Assembly: GCA_963575745.1 (NCBI GenBank)
Contig: CAUYUJ010000198.1
Coordinates: 1-64,000, forward strand
Direction: 5' to 3'
Origin: Prorocentrum cordatum
Lineage: Eukaryota
DNA length: 64,000 nt
Shown here: positions 1 through 49,290 of the stretch, piece after piece
How the letters are laid out: each line of letters opens with the position of its first letter
How positions within the stretch are numbered: position 1 is the stretch's first letter
Translations under genes and position numbers: made by a program
The notes under the pieces: model-generated
Databases searched by the model: none
What the model saw: only the letters and a program-made list of their open reading frames with translations
Told to the model about the DNA's origin: nothing

Positions 1-1150
1 GGGGTCGCTATCCGTTTCGGGCTCGCAAAGCGTGGCAGGCGTGGCACATCCTTGACACCGCAGGGGGCGCGCTGGGGGTGGGGTCGCTATCCGTTTCGGG
101 CTCGCAAAGCGTGGCAGGCGTGGGACATCCTCGACACCACAGGGGGCGCGCTGGGGGTGGGGCCGCTATCCGTTTCGGGCTCGCAAAGCGTGGCAGGCGT
201 GGCACATCCTCGACACCACAGGGGGGAGCCCTGGGTGTGGGGTCGCTATCCGTGTCGGGCTCGCAAAGCGTGGCAGGCGTGGCACATCCTCGACACCACA
301 GGTGGGCGCGCTGGGGGTGGGGTCGCTATCCGTTCCCGGCTCGCAAAGCGTGGCAGGCGTGGCGCATTCTCGACACCACAGGGGGCGCGCTGGGGGTGGG
401 GTCGCTATCCGTTTCGGGCTCCTACCCTCCGTTCTCCTTCTCGCAAAGCGTGGCAAGCGTGGCACATCCTGAAATCCACAGGGGGCGCGCTGGGGGTGTT
501 TTGCGCGGGGGGTGGGGGCCATATGCGTTTCGGGCTCGCAAAGCGTGGCAGGCGTGGCACTTCCTCGACACCAGAGGGGGTGCGCTGGGGGTGGTGGCCC
601 TATGCGTTTCGGGCTCGCAAAGCGTGGCAGGCGTGGCACTTCCTCGACACCAGAGGGGGTGCGCTGGGGGTGGGGGCCCTATGCGTTTCGGGCTCGCAAA
701 GCGTGGCAGGCGTGGCACTTCCTCGACACCAGAGGGGGTGCGCTGGGGATGGGGGCCCTATGCGTTTCGGGCTCGCAAAGCGTGGCAGGCGTGGCACTTC
801 CTCGACACCAGAGGGGGTGCGCTGGGGGTGGGGGCCCTATGCGTTTCGGGCTCGCAAAGCGCGGCAGGCGTGGCACTTCCTCGACACCAGAGGGGGTGCG
901 CTGGGGGTGGGGGCCCTATGCGTTTCGGGCTCGCAAAGCGTGGCAGGCGTGGCACATCCTCGACACCAGAGGGGGTGCGCTAGCGGTGGGGGGCCCTATG
1001 CGTTTCGGGCTCGCAAAGCGCGGCAGGCGTGGCACTTCCTCGACACCAGAGGGGGTGCGCTGGGGGTGGGGGCCCTATGCGTTTCGGGCTCGCAAAGCGT
1101 GGCAGGCGTGGCACATCCTCGACACCAGAGGGGGTGCGCTAGCGGTGGGA
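1..1150. repeat. 79-bp tandem satellite (~14 units), truncated by the window start
   Basis: Unit ggggtcgctatccgtttcgggctcgcaaagcgtggcaggcgtggcacatcctcgacaccacagggggcgcgctgggggt recurs at 1, 80 and onward. A second variant (ggggccctatgcg...cacttcctcgacaccagag) takes over after an interruption at ~420-520. Confidence 0.95.
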
Positions 1151-1579
1151 GCTCGTACCTTGTCAAGAACTGTGAACACCTTGGCTCCAGCCGGCTCGGC
1201 GCGCCTGCGCTCTCACGCAGGCGCGCTCCTGTAGTCCTACTTCAGAGCACCGCCCTTCCTGCGCGCGGCGGTCATGCCGCCGAAACTTGCCATGGGCGCT
1301 CTGCCGCCTCCGTGTCCGGCGATTACAAATCAGTATGTGGGGTTCCTCGGTCGCGTAATGCTTTTTTTTGTCGCCTTTCCACTTCTGACAGGTTCTGAAA
1401 ACCCATAGCTGCCGCCAGATCCCCAAGAGAGCCGCAGAAGGGGCCCACGACGGCCCCAAGACGCCACCGCAAGCGCGCCACAAGGGCGACTATCTTTGGG
1501 CCCCCACGGCCGTCCGCGGGCCCCATTCGCGCAGCGCTCGGAGGTGGGAGCCGGCACGGCTGCGCGATACATGTGCGCC

Positions 1580-2321: not shown

Positions 2322-3428
2322 CAGCCCCAGGGGAAGAGAGGACAGATGGAAGAGGGAGGGAGGAGGATGGAGCACGAGCGAGATTAGCAGGAGGGAGGCT
2401 TAGGAACAGAAAGCACGTGGCAGAACCAAACGGGTAGGTCGGTCGGGTGGACCCTAACGGGCGGGTCAGGAAAGCGGGCCCAGGTGGCCACGTCGAGTAG
2501 GCGGGTTGCCGAAGCGTGAACATGAGTCGGGAGGAAGTCTCGTGCGATAGCGCGATTCCAAAGAAGATCACAAGACATGTCGAAGCGACAGCGTGATTCC
2601 CTAAGGGTTGAAGGCGCGACGCTTGAATAAGTTGCGATGAAGTCCCACGCGCGAGCGCGACTTCTGCATAATTTGTGAGAAGTCCCGCGCGAGAGCGCGA
2701 GTTGGGAATATCCGTGTGAGGAAATATCAGGCAGGAGCCTTTGATGTTGTAAACCGAAGGCCAAAGAGACAATTCTAAGACTGAAGACTTTCCCAGAAAA
2801 CAACAGGGTGCGAGTCCCGTGAAAAGGTAACCCAATGGAATAACACCACATGCCCCGGAGGGGTATCAGCAACATTCATTATTTAGACACGAGAATTCAA
2901 CAGCGACAACACCACCGACAATAACAACACCAACAACAGCACCACCAACAACAGCAACAACACCAACAACACCACCACCACCAACAACACCACCACCACC
3001 AACAGTAATAACAACAACACCAACAACATTCATTATAAGGCTGTTTGCTCTTGGCCCGTGTGTCATTCAAAACGAATTCCCACACACCATCGATACCCGC
3101 CCTTTTCTGTCTTCGGTCACACACTCTTTTGGGGGATTCTTTCTCTTCGCGGGGGGCGGCGGGCTTAGACAGGCGGGCAAACCTGAACGGGCGGACAATC
3201 CTTCGTGAGCGTACATGTGCCCGTCATTGGAATTGGTGTGGGCCCTGCAAAAAGAAGAGGGGGAAGAACGAGGGAGAGTGGGAGGAAGGGAGGGGGAGGG
3301 ACGAAGGAAGAGGGAAAACGCCAGGAGAGAAGGAGCGAAGAGGGGGGCGGTTGATTAGAGGCAGAAATAGATAAAGAGAGAGAGAGAAACAGAGAAAGAG
3401 AAATACATATAAGAGAGGTATAACAAAT

Positions 3429-3465
<37 letters not shown>

Positions 3466-4379
3466 AAGAAAGAGATGGGAGAGAGAAAGAAAGAGGGAGG
3501 GAGGAGGCAGGAGAGGGGAGGGAAAGGGGAGGATTGGATTGGACACTTCGGGGGAGGGAAAAGGGAGGAGGGAGAGGAGGAAGAGGGGATAGGGCAGAGA
3601 GGCATAAGGATGAGGGAAGAGAAAAGGGAGAGAGATGGGAGGAGAGGAGGGAGGAGGAGGAGGAGGAGGAGGAGGAGGAGGAGGAGGAGGGAAAGGGAGG
3701 AGGAACAGGAAGGTAAGACGTGAACGTTCGAGGAAGTCCTAAGCGAAAGCGCCGTTCCTGAAGGAAGTCTCGGGCGGGAACCCACGACGGGCGGGCGATC
3801 CCCTGACGGGCGGGTCGGGCGTGTGGGACATTCAAGCGGGATGCCTGAGTATGGCGAGAGCGCGATTCCTGAGAGTAAATTGTGACGGCGTCCTTGGCGC
3901 AGCGTGTTTCCTGAGCGTCGAACGCACGATTTCTGAATACATTGCATGGAAGTCACGGGCGAGAGCGCAACTCCTGAATAACATGTGGGGGGTTCTCTGG
4001 CGGGAGCGGGGGTCTTGATTAAATTGCGAGGAGATCTTGATTCAATTGTGAAGAAATCTCAAGCGGAAGCGAAGTTCCTGAGTAAATTGTGAGAAAGCCT
4101 CAGATTGGAGCGGAGGTCCTGACACAATTGCGAGGAAGTCGCAGGCGGGAGCACCGGTCCTGAGTAAATTGTGAAGAAATCTCAGGCGGGAGTGGGGTCC
4201 GGAGTAAATTTGGAGGAAGCCTCAAGCGGGAACCGTTGTTGTAATCCGGGGGGGCAGGGGCCCAGTTTGAACACGAATGCTTTCCCTGTCAAAAGACAGG
4301 GTGCGAGCGTCGAAGGGCACATTTTGATTGAGAAAATCAATCCGCACCGGTGAGGGGGATCAACAACAAGTGGCACGTG

Positions 4380-5597: not shown

Positions 5598-5989
5598 ACT
5601 GTTCTACAGACGTGAGAATTCAACAACAACAATACTTATTCTAAGACTGTTCGCTCGTACTTGCCCGTGTGTCATTCAAAACGAATTCCCCACGCCCTCG
5701 ATGCCCGCCTTTTTGTCTTCGTACACACCCCTTTTGGGGGGATTATTTCTCTTTGCGGGGGGCGGCGGGCTTAGACAGGCGGGTGCGCCTGAACGGGCGG
5801 GCAATCCTTCGTGGGCGTACATGTGCCCGCCATTGGAATTGGCGTGGGCCCTGCAAAAAGAGGAGGGGGATACCGAAGGGGAGTGCGAGGAAGGGAGCGG
5901 GGGGGGGGGGGGGGGTGCGAAGGCAGTGGAAACCGCCATAGAGAAGGAGCGAGCGGGGGGAGGTTGAATTAGCGGCAGAGGGAAGGAGA

Positions 5990-6430
<441 letters not shown>

Positions 6431-6749
6431 GGGAGGAGGCAGGAGAGGGGAGGGAGAAGGGATGAGGGAGGGGAGGGAGAGGGGATAAGGCAGAAAAGCA
6501 TAATGATGAGGGAAGAGAGGAGGGAGAGAGAAGGGAGGAGAGGAGGGGGGAGGGAGGAGGGAGAGGGGGTCCCACCCGTTGGGGGCCGCGCCCTGGCTCC
6601 TCGACGACTAGCGGAGCAGCCCCTGCAATTGAGGGGACCTCCGAATGATGACTTTGAGACGTGCCTTGACCGTCTGGCGAGAGAGAGAGAGCAGCGGATG
6701 GGGCAGGGCGTGTGCGCAGAGCTTGAAAAGCAGAGTGGGGGCAATCTAA

Positions 6750-9700
6750 AGCAATAAGACAGGAGGGGAGAGCCGTGCCATTCGCAGGAGGGAGGAGATG
6801 GGGGAGGAAGACTCCCAGTGGATCATGACCCCAACCAAGTGGAAGAGCAGGCAGAAGATGGACAAGCAGAGGTTGAACGATGGGGCAAACCACATTGTGA
6901 AGCAAGTCGTCTCCGCCAACGCATGCGCAACCGAACTTGCAGCCTTGGGCGCCTTGTCGAAAGCGCTTCGTGGTGTTCCAGCTGTTGAAACACGATTGGA
7001 GCAGCGCAACGAAGACAAAGGGCGGTACCATACTGCTGCTTCGAAGGATGACTCTGAATGAGGTGTCACTATCGGCTCCAGTCAGAGAGGGTGCCCATTT
7101 TCTGAGTCTTGGGGCGACGATACTGGAGATGGGCTCTGAGTGGAAGTCGGGAGTGATCAACAAGTTTGTTCTGGACATTTTTCCTCTGGGTGTCTTCTGG
7201 GGGCCTCTGAATGTACCTCGAGTCCAGGAAGTCTTGATGCACTTGCCAGAAGAGGGAGTCCTTCAGGTACGGGGGCCGCCGAAAAGCAATGCAATAATCA
7301 TCGCCGTCAAGGGTGTCCTGAAGCTGAGTGACCTCCGAGGAAAGAGGTCAGAATTGATGGCAAACGCGAAGTCGTGCAGCAAGGCTACGAATGCGGGGGT
7401 CGCCTGCCTGCGCCTTGAAACCGATTTCCTTGAATCGCGAAAAAATCGCCGGCGGACAAGAATGCCTCGGAGCACAGGTGTAAGCTTGCAAAGCTTCTCT
7501 TTCAGCGCGCAGAATCTGGGGGGTCGGGCGGGAACCATGTAGCGGGTCAGACACATAACCAGTAACCGATAGAGCATATACATGGTGAACGGTGATACTG
7601 CTGGCCAGGCCAAGCCCCACTTTCTTGATGGCGAGGGACCTCTGGGCAAGATTGTAGGCGACAGGATTCCAGGAGAGGCTGGGGGCATTCCACCCAAGGT
7701 AGAACCCAAGATATTTCCCGTGGTATTGTATTTTGAATTGGTTGACACGAATCCCCATTCTTTTGAATTCGGCCCTAGCTGTCTCAACGCTGCCAGGTTC
7801 CAGGAGGACGATGACGCACTTCTTGAGATTTAAAAGAAGCCCATCACCACTCCCATAGAGACAGATCTGACGGACAACGGCTGGGAGAACAGCGTAGATA
7901 TCAGATGAGGTGAGGCCAAGATCGCCGGCAAAAGCTGTGACCCTCTTCGGGGCCTCGATGGGAAGGTGATGCAACCATCTCAGGAGCGGGTCGAGGACGA
8001 ATGCACATAAAACGCCAGAGAGCGGGCAGCCCTGCTTGACGCCCCGCAGGGCGGTGAAAGAGACAGGGTCCGAACCGCGAGAGGAAATGATACATTGCAT
8101 GTTAGAATGCAGTAATGTGATAGCTGTGATCATGAATGTGGGAAAGTTGTACGCCCTCAGAACCCTGAAGATCCAGGAGTGGTGCACAGACGGGAAGGCG
8201 GCGCGAAAGTCGAAGAAGCAAGCTCCAGCTCGCTCCCCCCCGCGCACAGCATGCCAGTGAGCAAGATTGAAATCGACCTCGAGGACGTTATCGATGATTT
8301 GACGACCCTTGATAAATCCACGCTGAGTTTCATGAAGACGATCACGGGCGACTTCCGATATCGGGGAGGCGATTAAACAGCTGATCAGTTTGTTGTCGGT
8401 GTTCGATAAAGCGATCGGTCTCGTGTCTTCGACAGTTTTGTAGACGTGCTCTGAGTCCCCGAGGCCCCCTTTCGGCAAGAGGGCGAGCTTGGCGGCATTG
8501 AAATCCGAGCTCATCGGGTTCCCCGCGAGGAGATGAAGATACACATCGTAAACGGCTTCTTGTGCCACAGGTCCAGCGGCCCTCCAGGCGCTGTAGCGCA
8601 AGCCGTCGGGTCCTGGGGCGGAATCTTTTTTTCCTGTGAAGGAGGTCAAGAAATTGATCAAGCGTAAGGGCCCAGGGGAACCTTTGATGGGTACTGTTGG
8701 TGCATTGGTGGGGGTCAGAGGGGAGGGGGGGGAGGTCCTGAAGAAATTCAGCCCCAGCTCCTGGACACTGATGTCCACGTGCAAATACTGAACTCCAGTG
8801 GTCGGCAAGCATCCTGGCGCAGGTATTGGGCTCCGCGAATTCGCTGCCGTCTGCTCCGATGATCCCCTTCAAAGCTACTGTGCGCTGACTGGCCCTCCAG
8901 GCACGCGCGAGACGCCGAATGCGGTGCAGGTGATAATCGGCCGAGTTGGCTGGCAACCGATCTGCTTGCAGGAGGTCGCGTTCTTGCTCCTCAAGCTCAG
9001 CCTTCATCATTTGACTCGAGTGATTATGAAAGCCTGACCTATGGGTGAACAAGAAAAGCTCGGGGTCATAAAGCTCTTTCAGGACTGGGTGAGCTCGAAG
9101 GGCTCGCTGGATGCCGCGTTGGATTCGCCCGCGATGGGATCTAGCTAGGCGGAGACAGCATGCAATCTTTTCTTGTCGTGATGCAGCCACCGTTCGATAC
9201 ATCTCTTGCTTGCATTGCTGACCTGCTGCGACCATGCATGCCTTGACCTCTAGGAGACGCTCTGTGGGGTCGGTGCTGAAGTCCTGTCCGTTGGCGAGCT
9301 CTTCAAAGATGCTGGCGCGCGACTGGCGCTTAAATACCCAGGCCGGCAGGGACACTTCACCATTCGGCTTCCAAGGTTTGAGGGAGAGATAGACGGGGAC
9401 ATGGTCCGAGGGAAAATAATAATCAGCGACATTCCACTGTCTGGAACCGAGGGGGTTGTGGTCGAGGAGGTCGGCGGTGGGAATATTCGTATAGATGCGG
9501 TCAAGACGGGCATGGGTGGCGGAAGAGGTAGGAGTAGTCGTGATACGCCGATGGGTGAAGGAGTCCTGCTCGAGCTCTGCGAACTCGCTAAAGATAGCCC
9601 TGGGGGCTCCTGCAAGCCTGGGCGGAGAGATGCGCTCAACCCCGCTAGAGGCATATCACCTACTTTCCCCAAGCTCGAGACAGTTGAAATCCCCAAGGAT

Positions 9701-10160
9701 GAAAGAAGAAGAGGATGCAGACGAGGGGAGGGCACGACGAACAGAGCCAAACTGGGCTCGAGTCCAGGGTTCGGGAAGGTCGGGGGCAATTTGAACATTG
9801 ACTATGCTTGGGGCCCCCCGGGGTCCTGGGAGCTGGAGAAGAGCAACGCGGCCAGACACAATATCACGAAATGCATATTGGCTGAACTGCCGCTGAAGCC
9901 GCAGAAAGATAAAGATGAGAAGGCCTCCAGCATTCGCGGGTGGCTCGAACGAGCCGAAGATGGCGTGCTGCTTAAAGTCCCGCTTGAGACGGAGGAGGTC
10001 ACCCTCGGTACCGCGGGCCCCTTGCACTGCTAGTATATCGTTGTGTTGAAGGAGAGAATGGAGGATATGAATTTTATGTCGAACGAGACGCTGGTTAGAA
10101 TAAGCAGAACCAATAAGAGCCTGAGAGTTCCAAGTGGTGATCTTGAAGGGATCTTTCGGG
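6750..10160 (-). pseudogene. LINE ORF2 (APE endonuclease, reverse transcriptase, C-terminal Cys/His finger), with frameshifts, stops and catalytic substitutions
   Basis: APE motifs: KITTWNS, LAVQGAR (for QETH), ILGDFN, ARLDRIY (~9490), FPSDHVP (~9400). RT motifs: SAPGPDG, RPIALSNTDNKL, QRGFIKGR, DFRAAFPSV, GVKQGCPLS, AFAGDL (for ADD), KYLGF. C-terminal CKFGC..DDLLHNVVCP. The motifs are spread over several frames. Confidence 0.92.
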
Positions 10161-10445
10161 AAGTACGGCTGGGAGGAGGAGGGCTGAAAGCTAGACGGCT
10201 CCCCCCCTGAATTCGGCGACAAGGCGGGGGGGGGGGGTCCCGAGGAAGGAGAGGGGGCGGGAGTCAACAGAGGCTCGCCATACTCACTGAAAGCTTCGGA
10301 GATCTGCAGCGGCAGCGAAGGTGTGGCAGCATGCGGGGGGGGAGGAGCAGCGCCCCACGCGCTCCTCCTCCACTAGGAAGACGTCAAAACCAATGCCCTC
10401 TAGGGAGTCGCTCCTGGCTGGAGCGTCGGCCTGCAAAAACAACCA

Positions 10446-11309
10446 TCACAGGTCGTCGAGCACCCCCTGGATCTGGTCGGGTGTGATGCCCCAGGTCGTC
10501 AACGAGGCCTGGTTGGGTTCGAAAGTGAACTGGTCCCCTGAGGCCTGCTTCGCCGACGCGAGCTCGTAGACGTCGCAATTGGAAATGACCTGCAATGCAC
10601 CCTTGTGGCCGTTGGCCCCGAGCTTGCACGAGGCATCCCACAGCGGGCTCTTCATCGCGAGCTGCTTGGCGGAGACGTAGATGCTAAAGAAGGCCCGCTT
10701 CTTCTGACGGACGTGGAGAGGAAGATCTCCCCGAATTCGAAGAGGATGAATACTTTGATCGCGAAAGTCCTGCCAGGAGATGCCAACCATGTTCGCCTTC
10801 CGCTGGAACTCCATGGCTGAGTCCTCAGTCTTGAACTTGAGTTTGTACACCTGCGAAATGCCGTGGAATTGGACCTCGACAGCGTTCTCATCGCCTAATT
10901 CCTTGGGGGATGTGGCCGTCAACTGCTCAAAATGCGCCTGGCCGCTTTTGAGCAGCAGCGGGCGTGGGAAAGTTCCAACATATTTAACCCTCGGGTCGCC
11001 CTGCTCGAAGTCATTGGTTAAGTCGATGGCGGACGTATCAACCCGTCGGCTCTTCGTCCCAGACTGCAAGAAAGAACGAATTGAGGAGCCACCTGAAGCC
11101 GTGCTTGGAGTAGAACTGCGCCTCGACTCAAGTTTCAGAAGACGTTCTTCCTGTCGTGAGACTTGTTCACGAAGCGCCGTAAGCTCAGCGCCCTGAGCGG
11201 TGAGTTGCCCTTGGATCCCTGCCGTCGACGTCTGAATCTCGGCGCGGAGGGTGGCCGTCTGCGCTTCCATGAGTTCCTGCATCATCTTCTTCATAGCGAT
11301 CTCTGCCAT
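10446..11309 (-). CDS. LINE ORF1 protein, 287 aa, N-terminal coiled coil
   Basis: Open frame from MAEIAMKKMMQELMEAQ with heptad segment LTAQGAELTALREQVSRQEERLLKLES. It lies 5' of ORF2 in the element. Confidence 0.75.
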   Translation of the reverse strand: MAEIAMKKMMQELMEAQTATLRAEIQTSTAGIQGQLTAQGAELTALREQVSRQEERLLKLESRRSSTPSTASGGSSIRSFLQSGTKSRRVDTSAIDLTNDFEQGDPRVKYVGTFPRPLLLKSGQAHFEQLTATSPKELGDENAVEVQFHGISQVYKLKFKTEDSAMEFQRKANMVGISWQDFRDQSIHPLRIRGDLPLHVRQKKRAFFSIYVSAKQLAMKSPLWDASCKLGANGHKGALQVISNCDVYELASAKQASGDQFTFEPNQASLTTWGITPDQIQGVLDDL

Positions 11310-11472
11310 GGCTGGGCACTTGACTGCAGGGTCGCCGCGAACGGCACGAGAAAAAAACGCAAGATGGTGCAAGAATGAAGCCTGCGGGGTCGCCTGTCGA
11401 CCCCTGAAGCGCGGCTCGAGCCCCGCCCCTTGGCTATGTCCAAGGCTCAACCGCGAGGCGGCACGGTTCAAC

Positions 11473-11492
11473 CTTGAGCCAATGGCTACGGA
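11473..11492 (-). other. Dinoflagellate spliced-leader relic at the LINE 5' end
   Basis: The minus strand reads TCCGTAGCCATTGGCTCAAG, which is the canonical DCCGTAGCCATTTTGGCTCAAG minus two T. Confidence 0.9.
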
Positions 11493-12123
11493 GGGAGGAG
11501 GGAGAGGGAGGAGGAGCAGGAAGGTCAGAGCGTGAACATTCGAGGAAATCCTAAGCGAAAGCGCCGTTCCTGAAGGAAGTCTCGGGCGTGAGCCCACGAC
11601 GGGCGGGCGATCCCTTGACGGGCGGGTCGGGCGTGTGGGACATTCAAGCGGGATGCCTGACTATGGCGAGAGCGCGATTACTAAGTAAATTGTAGCGGCG
11701 TCCTTGGCGCAGCGTGTTTCCTGAGCGTCGGAAGCGCGATGTCTGAATAAATTGCATGGGGGTCACAGGCGAAAGCTCAATTCCTGAATAATATGTGAGG
11801 GGTTCTCTGGCGTGAGCGCGGATCTTGATTAAATTACGAGGAAGTCTTGACTCAATTGCGAGGAAGTCTCAAGCGGGAACGCCGTTCCTGAGTAAATTGT
11901 AAGGAAATCTCAGATGGGAGCGGGGGTCCTGACTAAATTGCGAAGCGACCACAGGCGGGAGCACCGATCCTGAGTAAATTGTGAAGTCTCAGGAGCGGGG
12001 GTCTTGAGTAAATTTGGAGGAAGCCTCAGGCGGGAGCCGTTGTTTCTGTAATCCGGGGGGCCAGGGGCTCAGTTTGAGCACGAAGACTTTCCGTGTCAAA
12101 AGACAGGGTGCGAGCGTCGAGGG

Positions 12124-15648: not shown

Positions 15649-15670
15649 CTTGAGCCAAAATTGCTGCGGC
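15649..15670 (-). other. Spliced-leader relic upstream of the lyase gene
   Basis: Minus strand GCCGCAGCAATTTTGGCTCAAG, a 20/22 match to DinoSL. Confidence 0.9.
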
Positions 15671-47809: not shown

Positions 47810-49290
47810 CTTTTTTTCGGATGACGTGAAGCGGGTCAAGCGCGTACTAGAGCAAGTGTTACATTTGGCGCGGTAAGTCGCCACCTTCAGCCACACAACC
47901 ACAAAGGAGAAACCACAAATCGTACCCTGCATACCATGAAGACCAACAGTCGAGTCAGGTGCCCAAGCAAATCCGTCATGCCTCGGTGGCTTCCCCGGCT
48001 TTACTACGAAAGCCCCGAAACACAACGGACTGTTTTAAGAAGTAAACAGTTCCGGCGCAAATATATACAAAGGCAGAGTGGCGGGTGGCATAGAATTGAA
48101 CGGAGTACGGCCCTCAAGTGGGCACTGCTGCTCCATCCACAGTGGACGTAACCAGCACCCACTTGGCATGCGCAAGTGTCGCCGCATCAGCCAGTGCACT
48201 CACGTAGTTCGTGGGAGCAGCGAACCTCGGACTTGCATGCTCTACCACGCTCTTCGTCTCTATCATGTTTGCCCGCGAAGTTAGGCGATGTGCTTCTCTG
48301 GTGCGCTGTCCCTGGATGCCCTTGGGCATGGGGACCGCACTCCAAGAACACATAAGTATCTCAAGATGGCGCCACTCCGAGAGCAAACGCCAACAGCGAA
48401 CGCAAGCGTGTCCACCCACAGCGTTTGCAAATGATTCAACAATTTGAACCGCTCCTCTCCTTGACGGTAAGATCACGATGTTGTGGGCATGGTGCGGTTT
48501 TATCGTGTTTCTCCTCGCCCAGCTAGATCGTGCTGTGGTCGTAGCTGGGCTTACCGTCCGTGATGTTCAGGATGAGGTCTCTGTTAATACTCGCATGCGT
48601 TATGGGGTCGGCTCTCATGCCTCTAATGTCGCACCACGGTATGTCGTCGATCTGCTTGGTGCAAAATTGATCTGAAAAGCTACTCGAGATGTCTGGTCAT
48701 GCTGCTTCCAAATGGGGGTCAAACTTCCATGGCCAGGGCCGGGAAGACGGGTGTTCCGTCGACTATCAAGAACCTTCTGGTTGAACGGCAGGAGGTGTGC
48801 TTTCATGCCGTCAGCTGCGCCGCTGGCTGCGAGCAGCTCTAAGCCAAACGATGATCGGCACACCAGCTTATGCGATCGGCTCACGGCGTCGAGCGACTGG
48901 CATACCTGTTTGCCAATACTGCGGCACACGCCCTGACGCGTGTATGCGGCTCCTTTCATGCCGCGCCCGGTCTCCCATCAGCCTTCCTTTTGCCGTTGTA
49001 GGCGTCGACATGCGTACTCATCTCTCGCCCAGGGCGAGTTCTCGTCTGAGGGACAGGAACCATGAACAGGAGACGCCGTTGGGATCGCCGACTGCTCGCC
49101 GCCGCCAGACATCACTGCACGAGAAACTGATACGGGGCCCCATTCCCATAGTGAAGGCGCGAACAAAAAACTGCCAAGCTCAAGAGCTTTGCCCACCGCG
49201 GAGTAGCAATATCCGTTTTCGCCAATGCGGGCTCACTCCGCCAAAACAATGATTTTGAACCAAAATGGCTTGATCCAAAATTGCTACGGA
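47810..49290 (-). pseudogene. Heavily decayed retrocopy downstream of a tandem SL relic
   Basis: Unique, lower-GC sequence with no long ORF. Possible oligo(A) remnant at ~47811-47817. The product cannot be recognised and the 3' boundary is uncertain. Confidence 0.45.
49254..49290 (-). other. Tandem spliced-leader relic (full 22-mer + 15-mer)
   Basis: Minus strand TCCGTAGCAATTTTGGATCAAG CCATTTTGGTTCAAA. Confidence 0.88.

What the first reader, a model, noticed from the sequence alone, without database searches (positions are those of the whole stretch)
6549..11508. A full-length LINE whose first nucleotides are the host spliced leader
Seen: the element is delimited by an exact 19-bp TSD and an empty site in a sister repeat, and its 5' end reads TCCGTAGCCATTGGCTCAAG. 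Known: DinoSL is trans-spliced onto mRNAs, and SL relics mark retroposed host genes. Inference: the LINE RNA itself is SL trans-spliced before retrotransposition. The element would then need no internal promoter, because the relic's internal AG (CCGTAG|CCATT) could let each copy be cut out of host read-through or intronic RNA and recapped, giving a self-renewing 5' end.
Basis: partly seen in the sequence, partly recalled or inferred. Interest (0 to 1): 0.85.

Follow-up and report, generated by a model that had tools for sequence, protein, structure and literature searches.

The report
Decayed LINE copy starting with spliced leader
A broken but end-to-end copy of a dinoflagellate jumping gene begins with the short leader that the cell splices onto its messenger RNAs, so it was copied from a processed messenger, as many retrocopied host genes in these algae are.

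Summary
A 4,925-bp insertion lies on the minus strand at 6568-11492. It is flanked by an exact 19-bp duplication and is absent from a paralogous copy of the flanks at 3015-4316. On its own strand it starts with a 20-nt DinoSL that lacks two of the four T.

It is an APE/RT non-LTR retrotransposon with an L1-type ORF1 and no poly(A) tail. It is full-length only in structure: ORF2 has an in-frame TGA, at least two frameshifts and no ATG.

The leader lies inside the duplication, so it arrived with the insertion. The template was most likely a mature, SL-trans-spliced LINE mRNA, copied to its 5' end and joined through 3 nt of microhomology (TCC).

Re-splicing at the relic's internal AG should leave a fresh leader followed by a 13-nt remnant. 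That pattern is seen at 49255-49289 but not here.

Whether the leader is a family-wide, renewable 5' end stays open. I could obtain no second copy's 5' junction and no transcript.

Print comes close: Song et al. 2017 report RT-type genes enriched among DinoSL-relict genes. I rate this a new member of a known kind, of moderate interest.

The parts
6549..6567 (.). Target-site duplication, copy at the element's 3' side
   Evidence: Exact 19/19 match to 11490-11508.
6568..11492 (-). Whole insertion (4,925 bp): leader relic, 5' UTR, ORF1, broken ORF2, 3' UTR. Boundaries are good to about 3 nt.
   Evidence: Absent from the sister repeat 3015-4316. No second copy in the window by blastn or tblastn.
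11473..11492 (-). DinoSL relic, 20 nt, with two T missing from the T4 run and no substitutions
   Evidence: Canonical sequence as quoted in PMC7245778.
11310..11472 (-). 5' UTR, 163 nt, beginning GTTGAACC
   Evidence: No Rfam match at E<=1. Fold z-score -1.58, not distinct from shuffles. Positions 11282-11457 are covered by diverged copies in run X2 at a depth like the element body.
10449..11309 (-). ORF1, 287 aa, open: long N-terminal helix, disordered linker, RRM-like domain and C-terminal domain
   Evidence: No Pfam hit. 81 relatives at E<=0.001, the best from Prorocentrum cordatum. AlphaFold2 model with pLDDT 86.8. Top Foldseek PDB hits are the human LINE-1 ORF1p trimer, E 3.5e-4.
9659..10372 (-). 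ORF2 segment with the APE endonuclease. No ATG in the open stretch. It ends at an in-frame TGA at 9656-9658.
   Evidence: Exo_endo_phos 3.5e-7. Translation, codon. In 3 of 3 X2 contigs covering 9656 the codon reads TGC.
8615..9655 (-). ORF2 linker segment, same frame as the APE part
   Evidence: tblastn frame -1 with P0085 and P0088.
7351..8868 (-). ORF2 reverse-transcriptase segment, shifted by one frame relative to the preceding part (shift near 8615-8694)
   Evidence: RVT_1 3.4e-23. PDB R2 and LINE-1 ORF2p hits at about 1e-12. P. cordatum RT 42% identical. Frames.
6864..7160 (-). ORF2 C-terminal segment in a third frame (second frameshift between about 7160 and 7366)
   Evidence: tblastn of P0085 residues 605-708, frame -3.
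6568..6863 (-). 3' UTR, ending ...GGGTGGGACC with no poly(A) or simple-repeat tail
11490..11508 (.). Target-site duplication, copy at the element's 5' side. Its last 3 nt on the element's strand overlap the leader's TCC.
3015..4316 (+). Paralogous copy of both flanks without the insertion. The empty site lies in a (GGA)n run at about 3669-3683.

Best explanation
This is one decayed, structurally complete copy of an L1-like (APE + RT, ORF1p-type) non-LTR retrotransposon of a dinoflagellate. It was made by target-primed reverse transcription in a purine-rich tract.

Its template was a mature LINE mRNA that already carried the trans-spliced DinoSL. The reverse transcriptase copied the RNA to its capped end. 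The cDNA end was joined to the target through 3 nt of microhomology (TCC). The leader was thereby fixed in DNA as a relic, just as in SL-tagged retrogenes.

What is shown:
- the insertion, its duplication and the empty site;
- the leader lying inside the duplication;
- the LINE domains and the broken ORF2.

What is inferred:
- the leader was on the RNA through trans-splicing at an acceptor directly in front of GTTGAACC;
- the two missing T are a later slip or a reverse-transcription slip in the T4 run.

Whether the family gains its 5' end this way at every generation is left open.
For: - The leader sits within 3 nt of the insertion boundary. That boundary is fixed independently by the duplication and by the sister alignment, where the right flank resumes at 11494.
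- The sister site has no leader sequence.
- Two further DinoSL relics lie on the same strand of the window. One heads a PEP_mutase gene (E 1.4e-33), so SL-tagged retroposition operates in this genome.
- The element has LINE anatomy.
- The 5' UTR is part of the repeated family. Diverged copies (85-95% alike) in run X2 cover 11282-11457 at a depth like the element body.
- Song et al. 2017 (PMC5585692, passages read) report the GO class 'RNA-dependent DNA replication' enriched among genes with DinoSL relicts.
- SymbioLINEs are described with TSDs, conserved UTRs and no poly(A) tail (PMC5890265, passages read).
Against: - There is only one copy. No second 5' junction was obtained.
- The leader is not canonical: two T are missing. 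A freshly spliced leader therefore needs a later deletion or an RT slip.
- The sequence right after the leader starts with GT, as SL-RNA introns do (PMC6616646). A chimera with an unspliced SL RNA is thus not excluded.
- The copy is defective, so it may have been copied in trans from a dead RNA.
- The flanks are low-complexity. I ran no formal shuffle test on the duplication.
Confidence: 0.7

Rival explanations
1. Promoter-less life cycle. The family regularly takes its capped 5' end from SL trans-splicing of read-through or host-gene RNA. Every full-length daughter then starts with a leader, which is renewed at each round. In the reader's version the acceptor is the relic's internal AG (CCGTAG|CC). 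In a version that fits this copy, the acceptor is the relic's own terminal AG (CTCAAG|GTTG), which would swap the old leader for a new one without stacking relics.
For: - The leader is at the exact 5' end.
- The 30 nt upstream are 97% pyrimidine. Only 1.6% of 30-nt windows on this strand reach that value. This makes a textbook acceptor context in front of the relic's AG.
- The element lies 2.8 kb downstream of a PEP_mutase gene and in the same orientation.
- Internal-AG re-splicing has happened in this genome, shown by the tandem relic at 49255-49289.
- No ribozyme or other Rfam motif is present at the 5' end.
Against: - The internal-AG version predicts a leader plus a 13-nt remnant. This copy has a single leader.
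- A freshly renewed leader should have four T; this one has two.
- This rests on one copy, with no family-level junction data.
- The sense orientation rests on a single neighbouring gene.
Confidence: 0.25
2. Template-switch chimera. Near the end of reverse transcription the enzyme jumped from the LINE RNA to a free SL RNA, or to the 5' end of another SL-bearing mRNA. The leader would then never have been spliced onto the LINE RNA.
For: - The base after the leader is G followed by T, like an SL-RNA 5' splice site (PMC6616646).
- L1-type enzymes are known to make such chimeras with small nuclear RNAs (recalled, not from a call).
Against: - The string CTCAAGGTTGAAC does not occur in the one held supplementary table of Fugacium kawagutii SL and SL-like gene sequences (a different species, so a weak test).
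- The 5' UTR up to at least 11457 is shared by diverged copies in run X2.
- No Rfam family matches.
Confidence: 0.07
3. The leader was already in the target. The LINE landed next to an older relic or inside an SL RNA gene, as SL-gene-specific LINEs of trypanosomatids and nematodes do.
For: SL relics are common in this window: 3 in 64 kb.
Against: - The leader is inside the duplication and missing from the sister site.
- No leader sequence lies at the 3' side.
- No SL RNA or 5S gene was found in the window by Rfam.
Confidence: 0.02

Closest known systems
DinoSL-relict retrogenes ('recycled cDNAs': Slamovits & Keeling 2008, as cited in PMC7245778; Song et al. 2017, PMC5585692)
   Same: The leader is fixed in DNA at the 5' boundary of a retroposed copy. 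The same window holds a PEP_mutase example.
   Different: The cargo is the retrotransposon itself. There is a clear 16-19 bp duplication and no poly(A) tail. The relic is single and has a 2-T deletion. Song et al. noted RT-type genes enriched among relict-bearing genes, but they read this as high expression of retroposition genes, not as the LINE's own 5' end.
SymbioLINE elements of Symbiodinium (de Mendoza et al. 2018, PMC5890265)
   Same: APE + RT LINE with an upstream ORF1, flanking TSDs, conserved UTRs and no poly(A) tail.
   Different: ORF1 here is an L1-type RNA-binding protein, not a DNA methyltransferase. My term search of that paper's main text found no mention of a spliced leader. 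Its supplements were not seen.
R2 and L1Tc 5' HDV-like ribozymes (PMC3774820, PMC3185411; abstracts in search listing)
   Same: Under the novel reading, both are ways for a LINE without reliance on its own promoter to cut a defined 5' end out of a host co-transcript.
   Different: No ribozyme was detected here, and the fold is not special. The proposed tool is the host's trans-splicing machinery, which would also supply a cap.
SL-gene-specific LINEs (SLACS, CZAR, CRE, NeSL-1; recalled, not from a call)
   Same: A LINE physically joined to spliced-leader sequence.
   Different: Those elements insert into SL RNA genes, so the leader belongs to the target. Here the leader is inside the duplication and the target is a GA-rich tract.
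Human LINE-1
   Same: ORF1p architecture of coiled coil, RRM and CTD. APE + RT ORF2. TSD of L1-like length and 5' microhomology.
   Different: No poly(A) tail. Sequence identity is very low (10-12% in the structural alignment). The RT matches R2 and L1 about equally in the PDB search. Clade placement was not done.

Membership tests
APE-type non-LTR retrotransposon (LINE) | Reverse transcriptase domain of the non-LTR type | tested here: met
   RVT_1 3.4e-23. Best PDB matches are R2 and LINE-1 ORF2p.
APE-type non-LTR retrotransposon (LINE) | Apurinic-type endonuclease N-terminal to the RT | tested here: met
   Exo_endo_phos 3.5e-7, upstream of the RT on the same strand.
APE-type non-LTR retrotransposon (LINE) | Target-site duplication, and absence from an empty site | tested here: met
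   19-bp exact repeat. Paralogous empty site.
APE-type non-LTR retrotransposon (LINE) | No terminal repeats | tested here: met
   Self-blastn of the element finds only itself.
L1 clade | ORF1p with coiled coil, RRM and CTD | tested here: met
   AlphaFold2 model with pLDDT 86.8. Ranks 1-10 in Foldseek PDB are human LINE-1 ORF1p. There is no Pfam hit, so this is fold-level only.
L1 clade | RT groups with L1 in a phylogeny | not tested
   No reference set of LINE clades was available. PDB E-values for R2 (6e-13) and L1 (8e-12) do not discriminate.
L1 clade | 3' poly(A) tail | tested here: not met
   The 3' end is ...GGGTGGGACC, directly followed by the duplication.
DinoSL-relict retrocopy | DinoSL sequence at the 5' boundary of the retroposed DNA | tested here: met
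   20 of 22 leader positions are present with no substitution; two T are missing.
DinoSL-relict retrocopy | Leader absent from the target before insertion | tested here: met
   The sister site has only (GGA)n. It is a paralogue, not an orthologue.
DinoSL-relict retrocopy | Tandem truncated relics as a mark of repeated rounds | tested here: not met
   A single leader. Contrast 49255-49289.
SL-gene-specific LINE (SLACS/CZAR/NeSL-1 type) | Insertion inside an SL RNA gene, with leader or SL-gene sequence on the target side | tested here: not met
   The leader is inside the duplication. The target is a GA-rich tract. No RNA gene was found in the window by Rfam.
Ribozyme-processed LINE (R2, L1Tc type) | HDV-like self-cleaving ribozyme at the 5' end | tested here: not met
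   No Rfam match at E<=1 in 6300-12000. The 5' 193 nt fold no better than 13 of 200 shuffles.

The most novel reading that the evidence does not exclude
Dinoflagellate L1-like LINEs have no need for an internal promoter. They land behind pyrimidine tracts and are transcribed by read-through. The host SL trans-splicing machinery then releases and caps them at an AG supplied by their own leader relic. The relic's terminal AG would regenerate a single leader each round. The leader would therefore be a heritable, self-renewing 5' end. The same machinery, with the same target preference, would make the SL-tagged retrogenes.
Probability: 0.25. Interest if true: 0.7.

Novelty: new member of a known kind. 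Interest (0 to 1): 0.4.

Why it matters
How LINEs keep a complete, translatable 5' end is a standing problem. Known answers are internal promoters and 5' ribozymes.

In an organism that trans-splices a capped leader onto its nuclear mRNAs, a LINE could outsource that step to the host. A leader at the exact 5' end of a LINE copy is the expected footprint.

It would also link a specific LINE family, with a purine/pyrimidine-tract target, to the mass retroposition of host genes in dinoflagellates. The enzyme source for that retroposition is still debated: the papers read here name Ty1/copia or LINEs as candidates.

As it stands, this is a single decayed copy. It shows only that one LINE mRNA carried the leader.

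Tried and rejected
- **Whole genome:** none is held, so genome-wide junction tabulation was impossible.
- **Other copies' DNA:** ORF1 and a 4-sequence ORF1 alignment found nothing in metagenome contigs, viral contigs or genome contigs. A 24-nt 5' UTR pattern had 0 hits in genome contigs. The 20-sequence alignment was too diverse for the tool.
- **Sequencing runs:** no RNA holder was listed. The best shares were 0.14-0.15.
- **Laying four runs:** identical short contigs appear in X1 and X3, and diverged copies in X2. The tool skipped 11487-11524 and 6530-6569 as repeats, so the 5' junction was not resolved.
- **Earlier scan notes:** nothing relevant.
- **Target-site duplications for the two other relics:** none found.
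- **5' UTR structure:** no Rfam match, and the fold is not distinct from shuffles.
- **Host-gene orientation:** only one solid Pfam gene among the 137 ORFs I scanned. These were ORFs of 140 aa or more, with low-complexity ORFs and those starting within 6500-11700 left out beforehand. That is too few for a sense-bias test.
- **Literature:** five searches and passages of ten papers gave no explicit description of a dinoflagellate LINE whose 5' end is the leader. Most supplements were not seen; only the one table of PMC6616646 was.
- **Chance match to the leader:** rejected.
Full report
**What is in the sequence.** The feature lies on the minus strand. Read on that strand, the DNA from 11492 downward begins TCCGTAGCCATTGGCTCAAG and continues GTTGAACCGTGCC. 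This is the 22-nt dinoflagellate spliced leader, as quoted in PMC7245778, with two of its four consecutive T missing and no substitution.
- The 14-mer GCCATTGGCTCAAG with up to one mismatch occurs once in the window, against 0.02 expected.
- An exact 19-mer, GGAGGGAGGAGGGAGAGGG on the plus strand, lies at 6549-6567 and at 11490-11508 and abuts both ends.
- When the 5' flank was searched against 8.8 kb of downstream sequence, including the (GA)n tract and the sister (GGA)n run, the next-best unrelated match was 13 nt.
- The last three bases of the repeat, TCC on the element's strand, are also the first three of the leader. The duplication is therefore 16-19 bp with a 3-nt microhomology at the 5' joint.

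**Empty site.** Both flanks have a paralogue at 3015-4316.
- Left flank 5621-6258 and 6278-6566 match 3015-3652 and 3367-3669, at 76-78% identity.
- Right flank 11494-12123 matches 3683-4316, at 87.5% identity.
- Only 13 nt of (GGA)n lie between the two matches, and there is no leader sequence.

This fixes the insertion as 6568-11492 (4,925 bp), good to about 3 nt, independently of the duplication. It also puts the leader inside the inserted DNA. The sister is a member of a repeat family, because the right flank is very high-copy in runs X4 and X2. It is not an orthologous empty site.

**What the insertion is.**
- ORF1 (11309-10449, 287 aa) is open and has no Pfam hit.
- An exhaustive search found 81 ORF1 relatives at E<=0.001. 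The best are Prorocentrum cordatum proteins, 42% identical by BLASTP and 55% over the matched stretches (names).
- An AlphaFold2 model built on 20 sequences has pLDDT 86.8. It shows a helix at residues 2-64, a disordered linker, an RRM-like alpha/beta domain and a C-terminal domain.
- The ten best Foldseek matches in the PDB are all human LINE-1 ORF1p: nine chains of the trimer structures and the RRM-CTD solution structure. The best E-value is 3.5e-4, and TM-scores are low because the domains are flexibly linked.
- ORF2 carries an APE endonuclease (Exo_endo_phos 3.5e-7) and a reverse transcriptase (RVT_1 3.4e-23).
- The RT matches R2 and LINE-1 ORF2p structures at about 1e-12 and a P. cordatum RT at 42% identity.
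- The 3' end has no poly(A) tail. SymbioLINEs are described the same way (PMC5890265, passages).

**State of the copy.** The copy is not intact.
- The open stretch with the APE domain has no ATG.
- An in-frame TGA sits at 9656-9658.
- The frame changes near 8615-8694 and again between about 7160 and 7366.
- In run X2, which holds copies 85-95% alike over the whole element, all 3 contigs covering 9656 read TGC instead of TGA. That stop is therefore private to this copy.

No other copy is in the window.

**How the leader got there.** The leader is inside the duplication and absent from the sister site, so it arrived on the cDNA. The simplest source is a mature LINE mRNA that had received the leader by trans-splicing at an acceptor directly before GTTGAACC. 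It was then copied to its 5' end by target-primed reverse transcription.

The window shows that this route operates in the genome.
- A relic at 15649-15669 (minus strand) heads a PEP_mutase gene (E 1.4e-33).
- A relic at 49269-49289 (minus strand) is followed by a second, truncated relic.
- Diverged X2 copies cover 11282-11457 at a depth like the body. The 5' UTR therefore belongs to the family rather than to a captured host exon.

I give this reading 0.7.

Re-splicing at the relic's internal AG (CCGTAG|CC) is the classical route to tandem relics, and the locus at 49255-49289 shows it. For the LINE it predicts a new leader followed by CCATTGGCTCAAG. The copy has a single leader, so it gives no support to that version.

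A variant does fit the single leader. The relic's terminal AG (CTCAAG|GTTG) could serve as acceptor and would replace the old leader with a new one. That variant would deliver four T, however, not two.

One observation favours a splicing-friendly context. The 30 nt upstream of all three relics are 87-97% pyrimidine. Each value is reached by only 1.6-3.0% of 30-nt windows on that strand. If the three are independent, the product is about 1.5e-5. This could reflect the target preference of the endonuclease, since the duplication itself is the pyrimidine tract, or survival of copies that can be trans-spliced. I could not separate the two.

**Rivals.**
- *Template switch to a free SL RNA.* This is not excluded, because the base after the leader starts GT like an SL-RNA intron (PMC6616646). 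The joint CTCAAGGTTGAAC is absent from that paper's table of Fugacium SL and SL-like genes, though that is another species.
- *Insertion next to a pre-existing leader or into an SL gene.* The sister site contradicts this, and Rfam finds no RNA gene in the window.
- *A 5' ribozyme.* None was found.

**What could not be done.**
- No genome is held.
- ORF1-based and pattern-based scans of the metagenome, viral and prokaryote collections gave nothing.
- No RNA run was listed.
- The read-laying tool skipped the junction as a repeat.

These are 5' junctions of other copies, SL-joined transcripts and sense bias.

**Comparison with print.** Five literature searches and passages of ten papers gave no explicit description of a dinoflagellate LINE that begins with the leader.

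Song et al. 2017 come close. They found 'RNA-dependent DNA replication' enriched among DinoSL-relict genes and suggested that the relic's T-run acts as a promoter motif. Supplements that might list such genes were not seen.

The nearest functional analogues for the bold reading are the 5' HDV-like ribozymes of R2 and L1Tc, which free the element from co-transcripts (abstracts).

**Verdict.** The object is a new member of a known kind: an SL-tagged retrocopy whose cargo is the LINE itself. Interest is moderate (0.4). The bold reading, a promoter-less LINE with a self-renewing 5' end supplied by the host, keeps a probability of about 0.25.

Noticed in passing
window 15649-15669 (-), gene about 15549-14500 (-): A DinoSL relic with 2 mismatches and an intact T4 run heads a PEP_mutase/isocitrate-lyase-family gene (Pfam 1.4e-33). 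This is an ordinary SL-tagged retrogene, 2.8 kb upstream of the LINE and in the same orientation. No duplication was found for it.
   Followed up: partly
window 49255-49289 (-): A full leader relic (2 mismatches) is followed directly by a truncated relic starting CCATTTTGG. This is the classical mark of re-trans-splicing at the internal AG and a second retroposition. No long ORF or Pfam hit lies behind it, so it is probably a decayed retrocopy.
   Followed up: partly
window, 30 nt upstream of the relics at 11492, 15670 and 49290 (-): All three leader relics sit directly behind pyrimidine-rich tracts (97%, 87% and 87% C+T). Each value is reached by only 1.6-3.0% of 30-nt windows on that strand. 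This could be a shared target preference of the retroposition machinery or selection for a splice-acceptor context.
   Followed up: partly
window 11534-11800 and 3683-4316: The right flank belongs to a very high-copy repeat. Its summed contig depth is in the thousands in run X4 and in the hundreds in X2. It contains 41-nt tandem units at 11854-11981 and 4030-4231.
   Followed up: no
window 5977-6568: A (GA)n / GA-rich microsatellite of about 500 bp. The LINE inserted at its purine-rich end. The sister copy has (GGA)n at the same place.
   Followed up: no
proteins P0004, P0010, P0011: ORF1 fragments up to 83% identical to this element are filed in EukProt under a transcriptome labelled Pyramimonas sp. 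CCMP1952, a prasinophyte. All other named relatives are from Prorocentrum cordatum. This suggests dinoflagellate material in that data set, or a mislabel, and shows that such ORF1s are transcribed somewhere.
   Followed up: no
protein P0083: A P. cordatum gene model of 786 aa joins an ORF1-like part (residues 134-262) to the RT (267-624). Gene callers evidently merge the two LINE ORFs there.
   Followed up: no
window 1-1395 (+): A weak Thiolase_C fragment (E 7e-6, just below Pfam's cut-off). It may be an exon of a host gene on the opposite strand.
   Followed up: no
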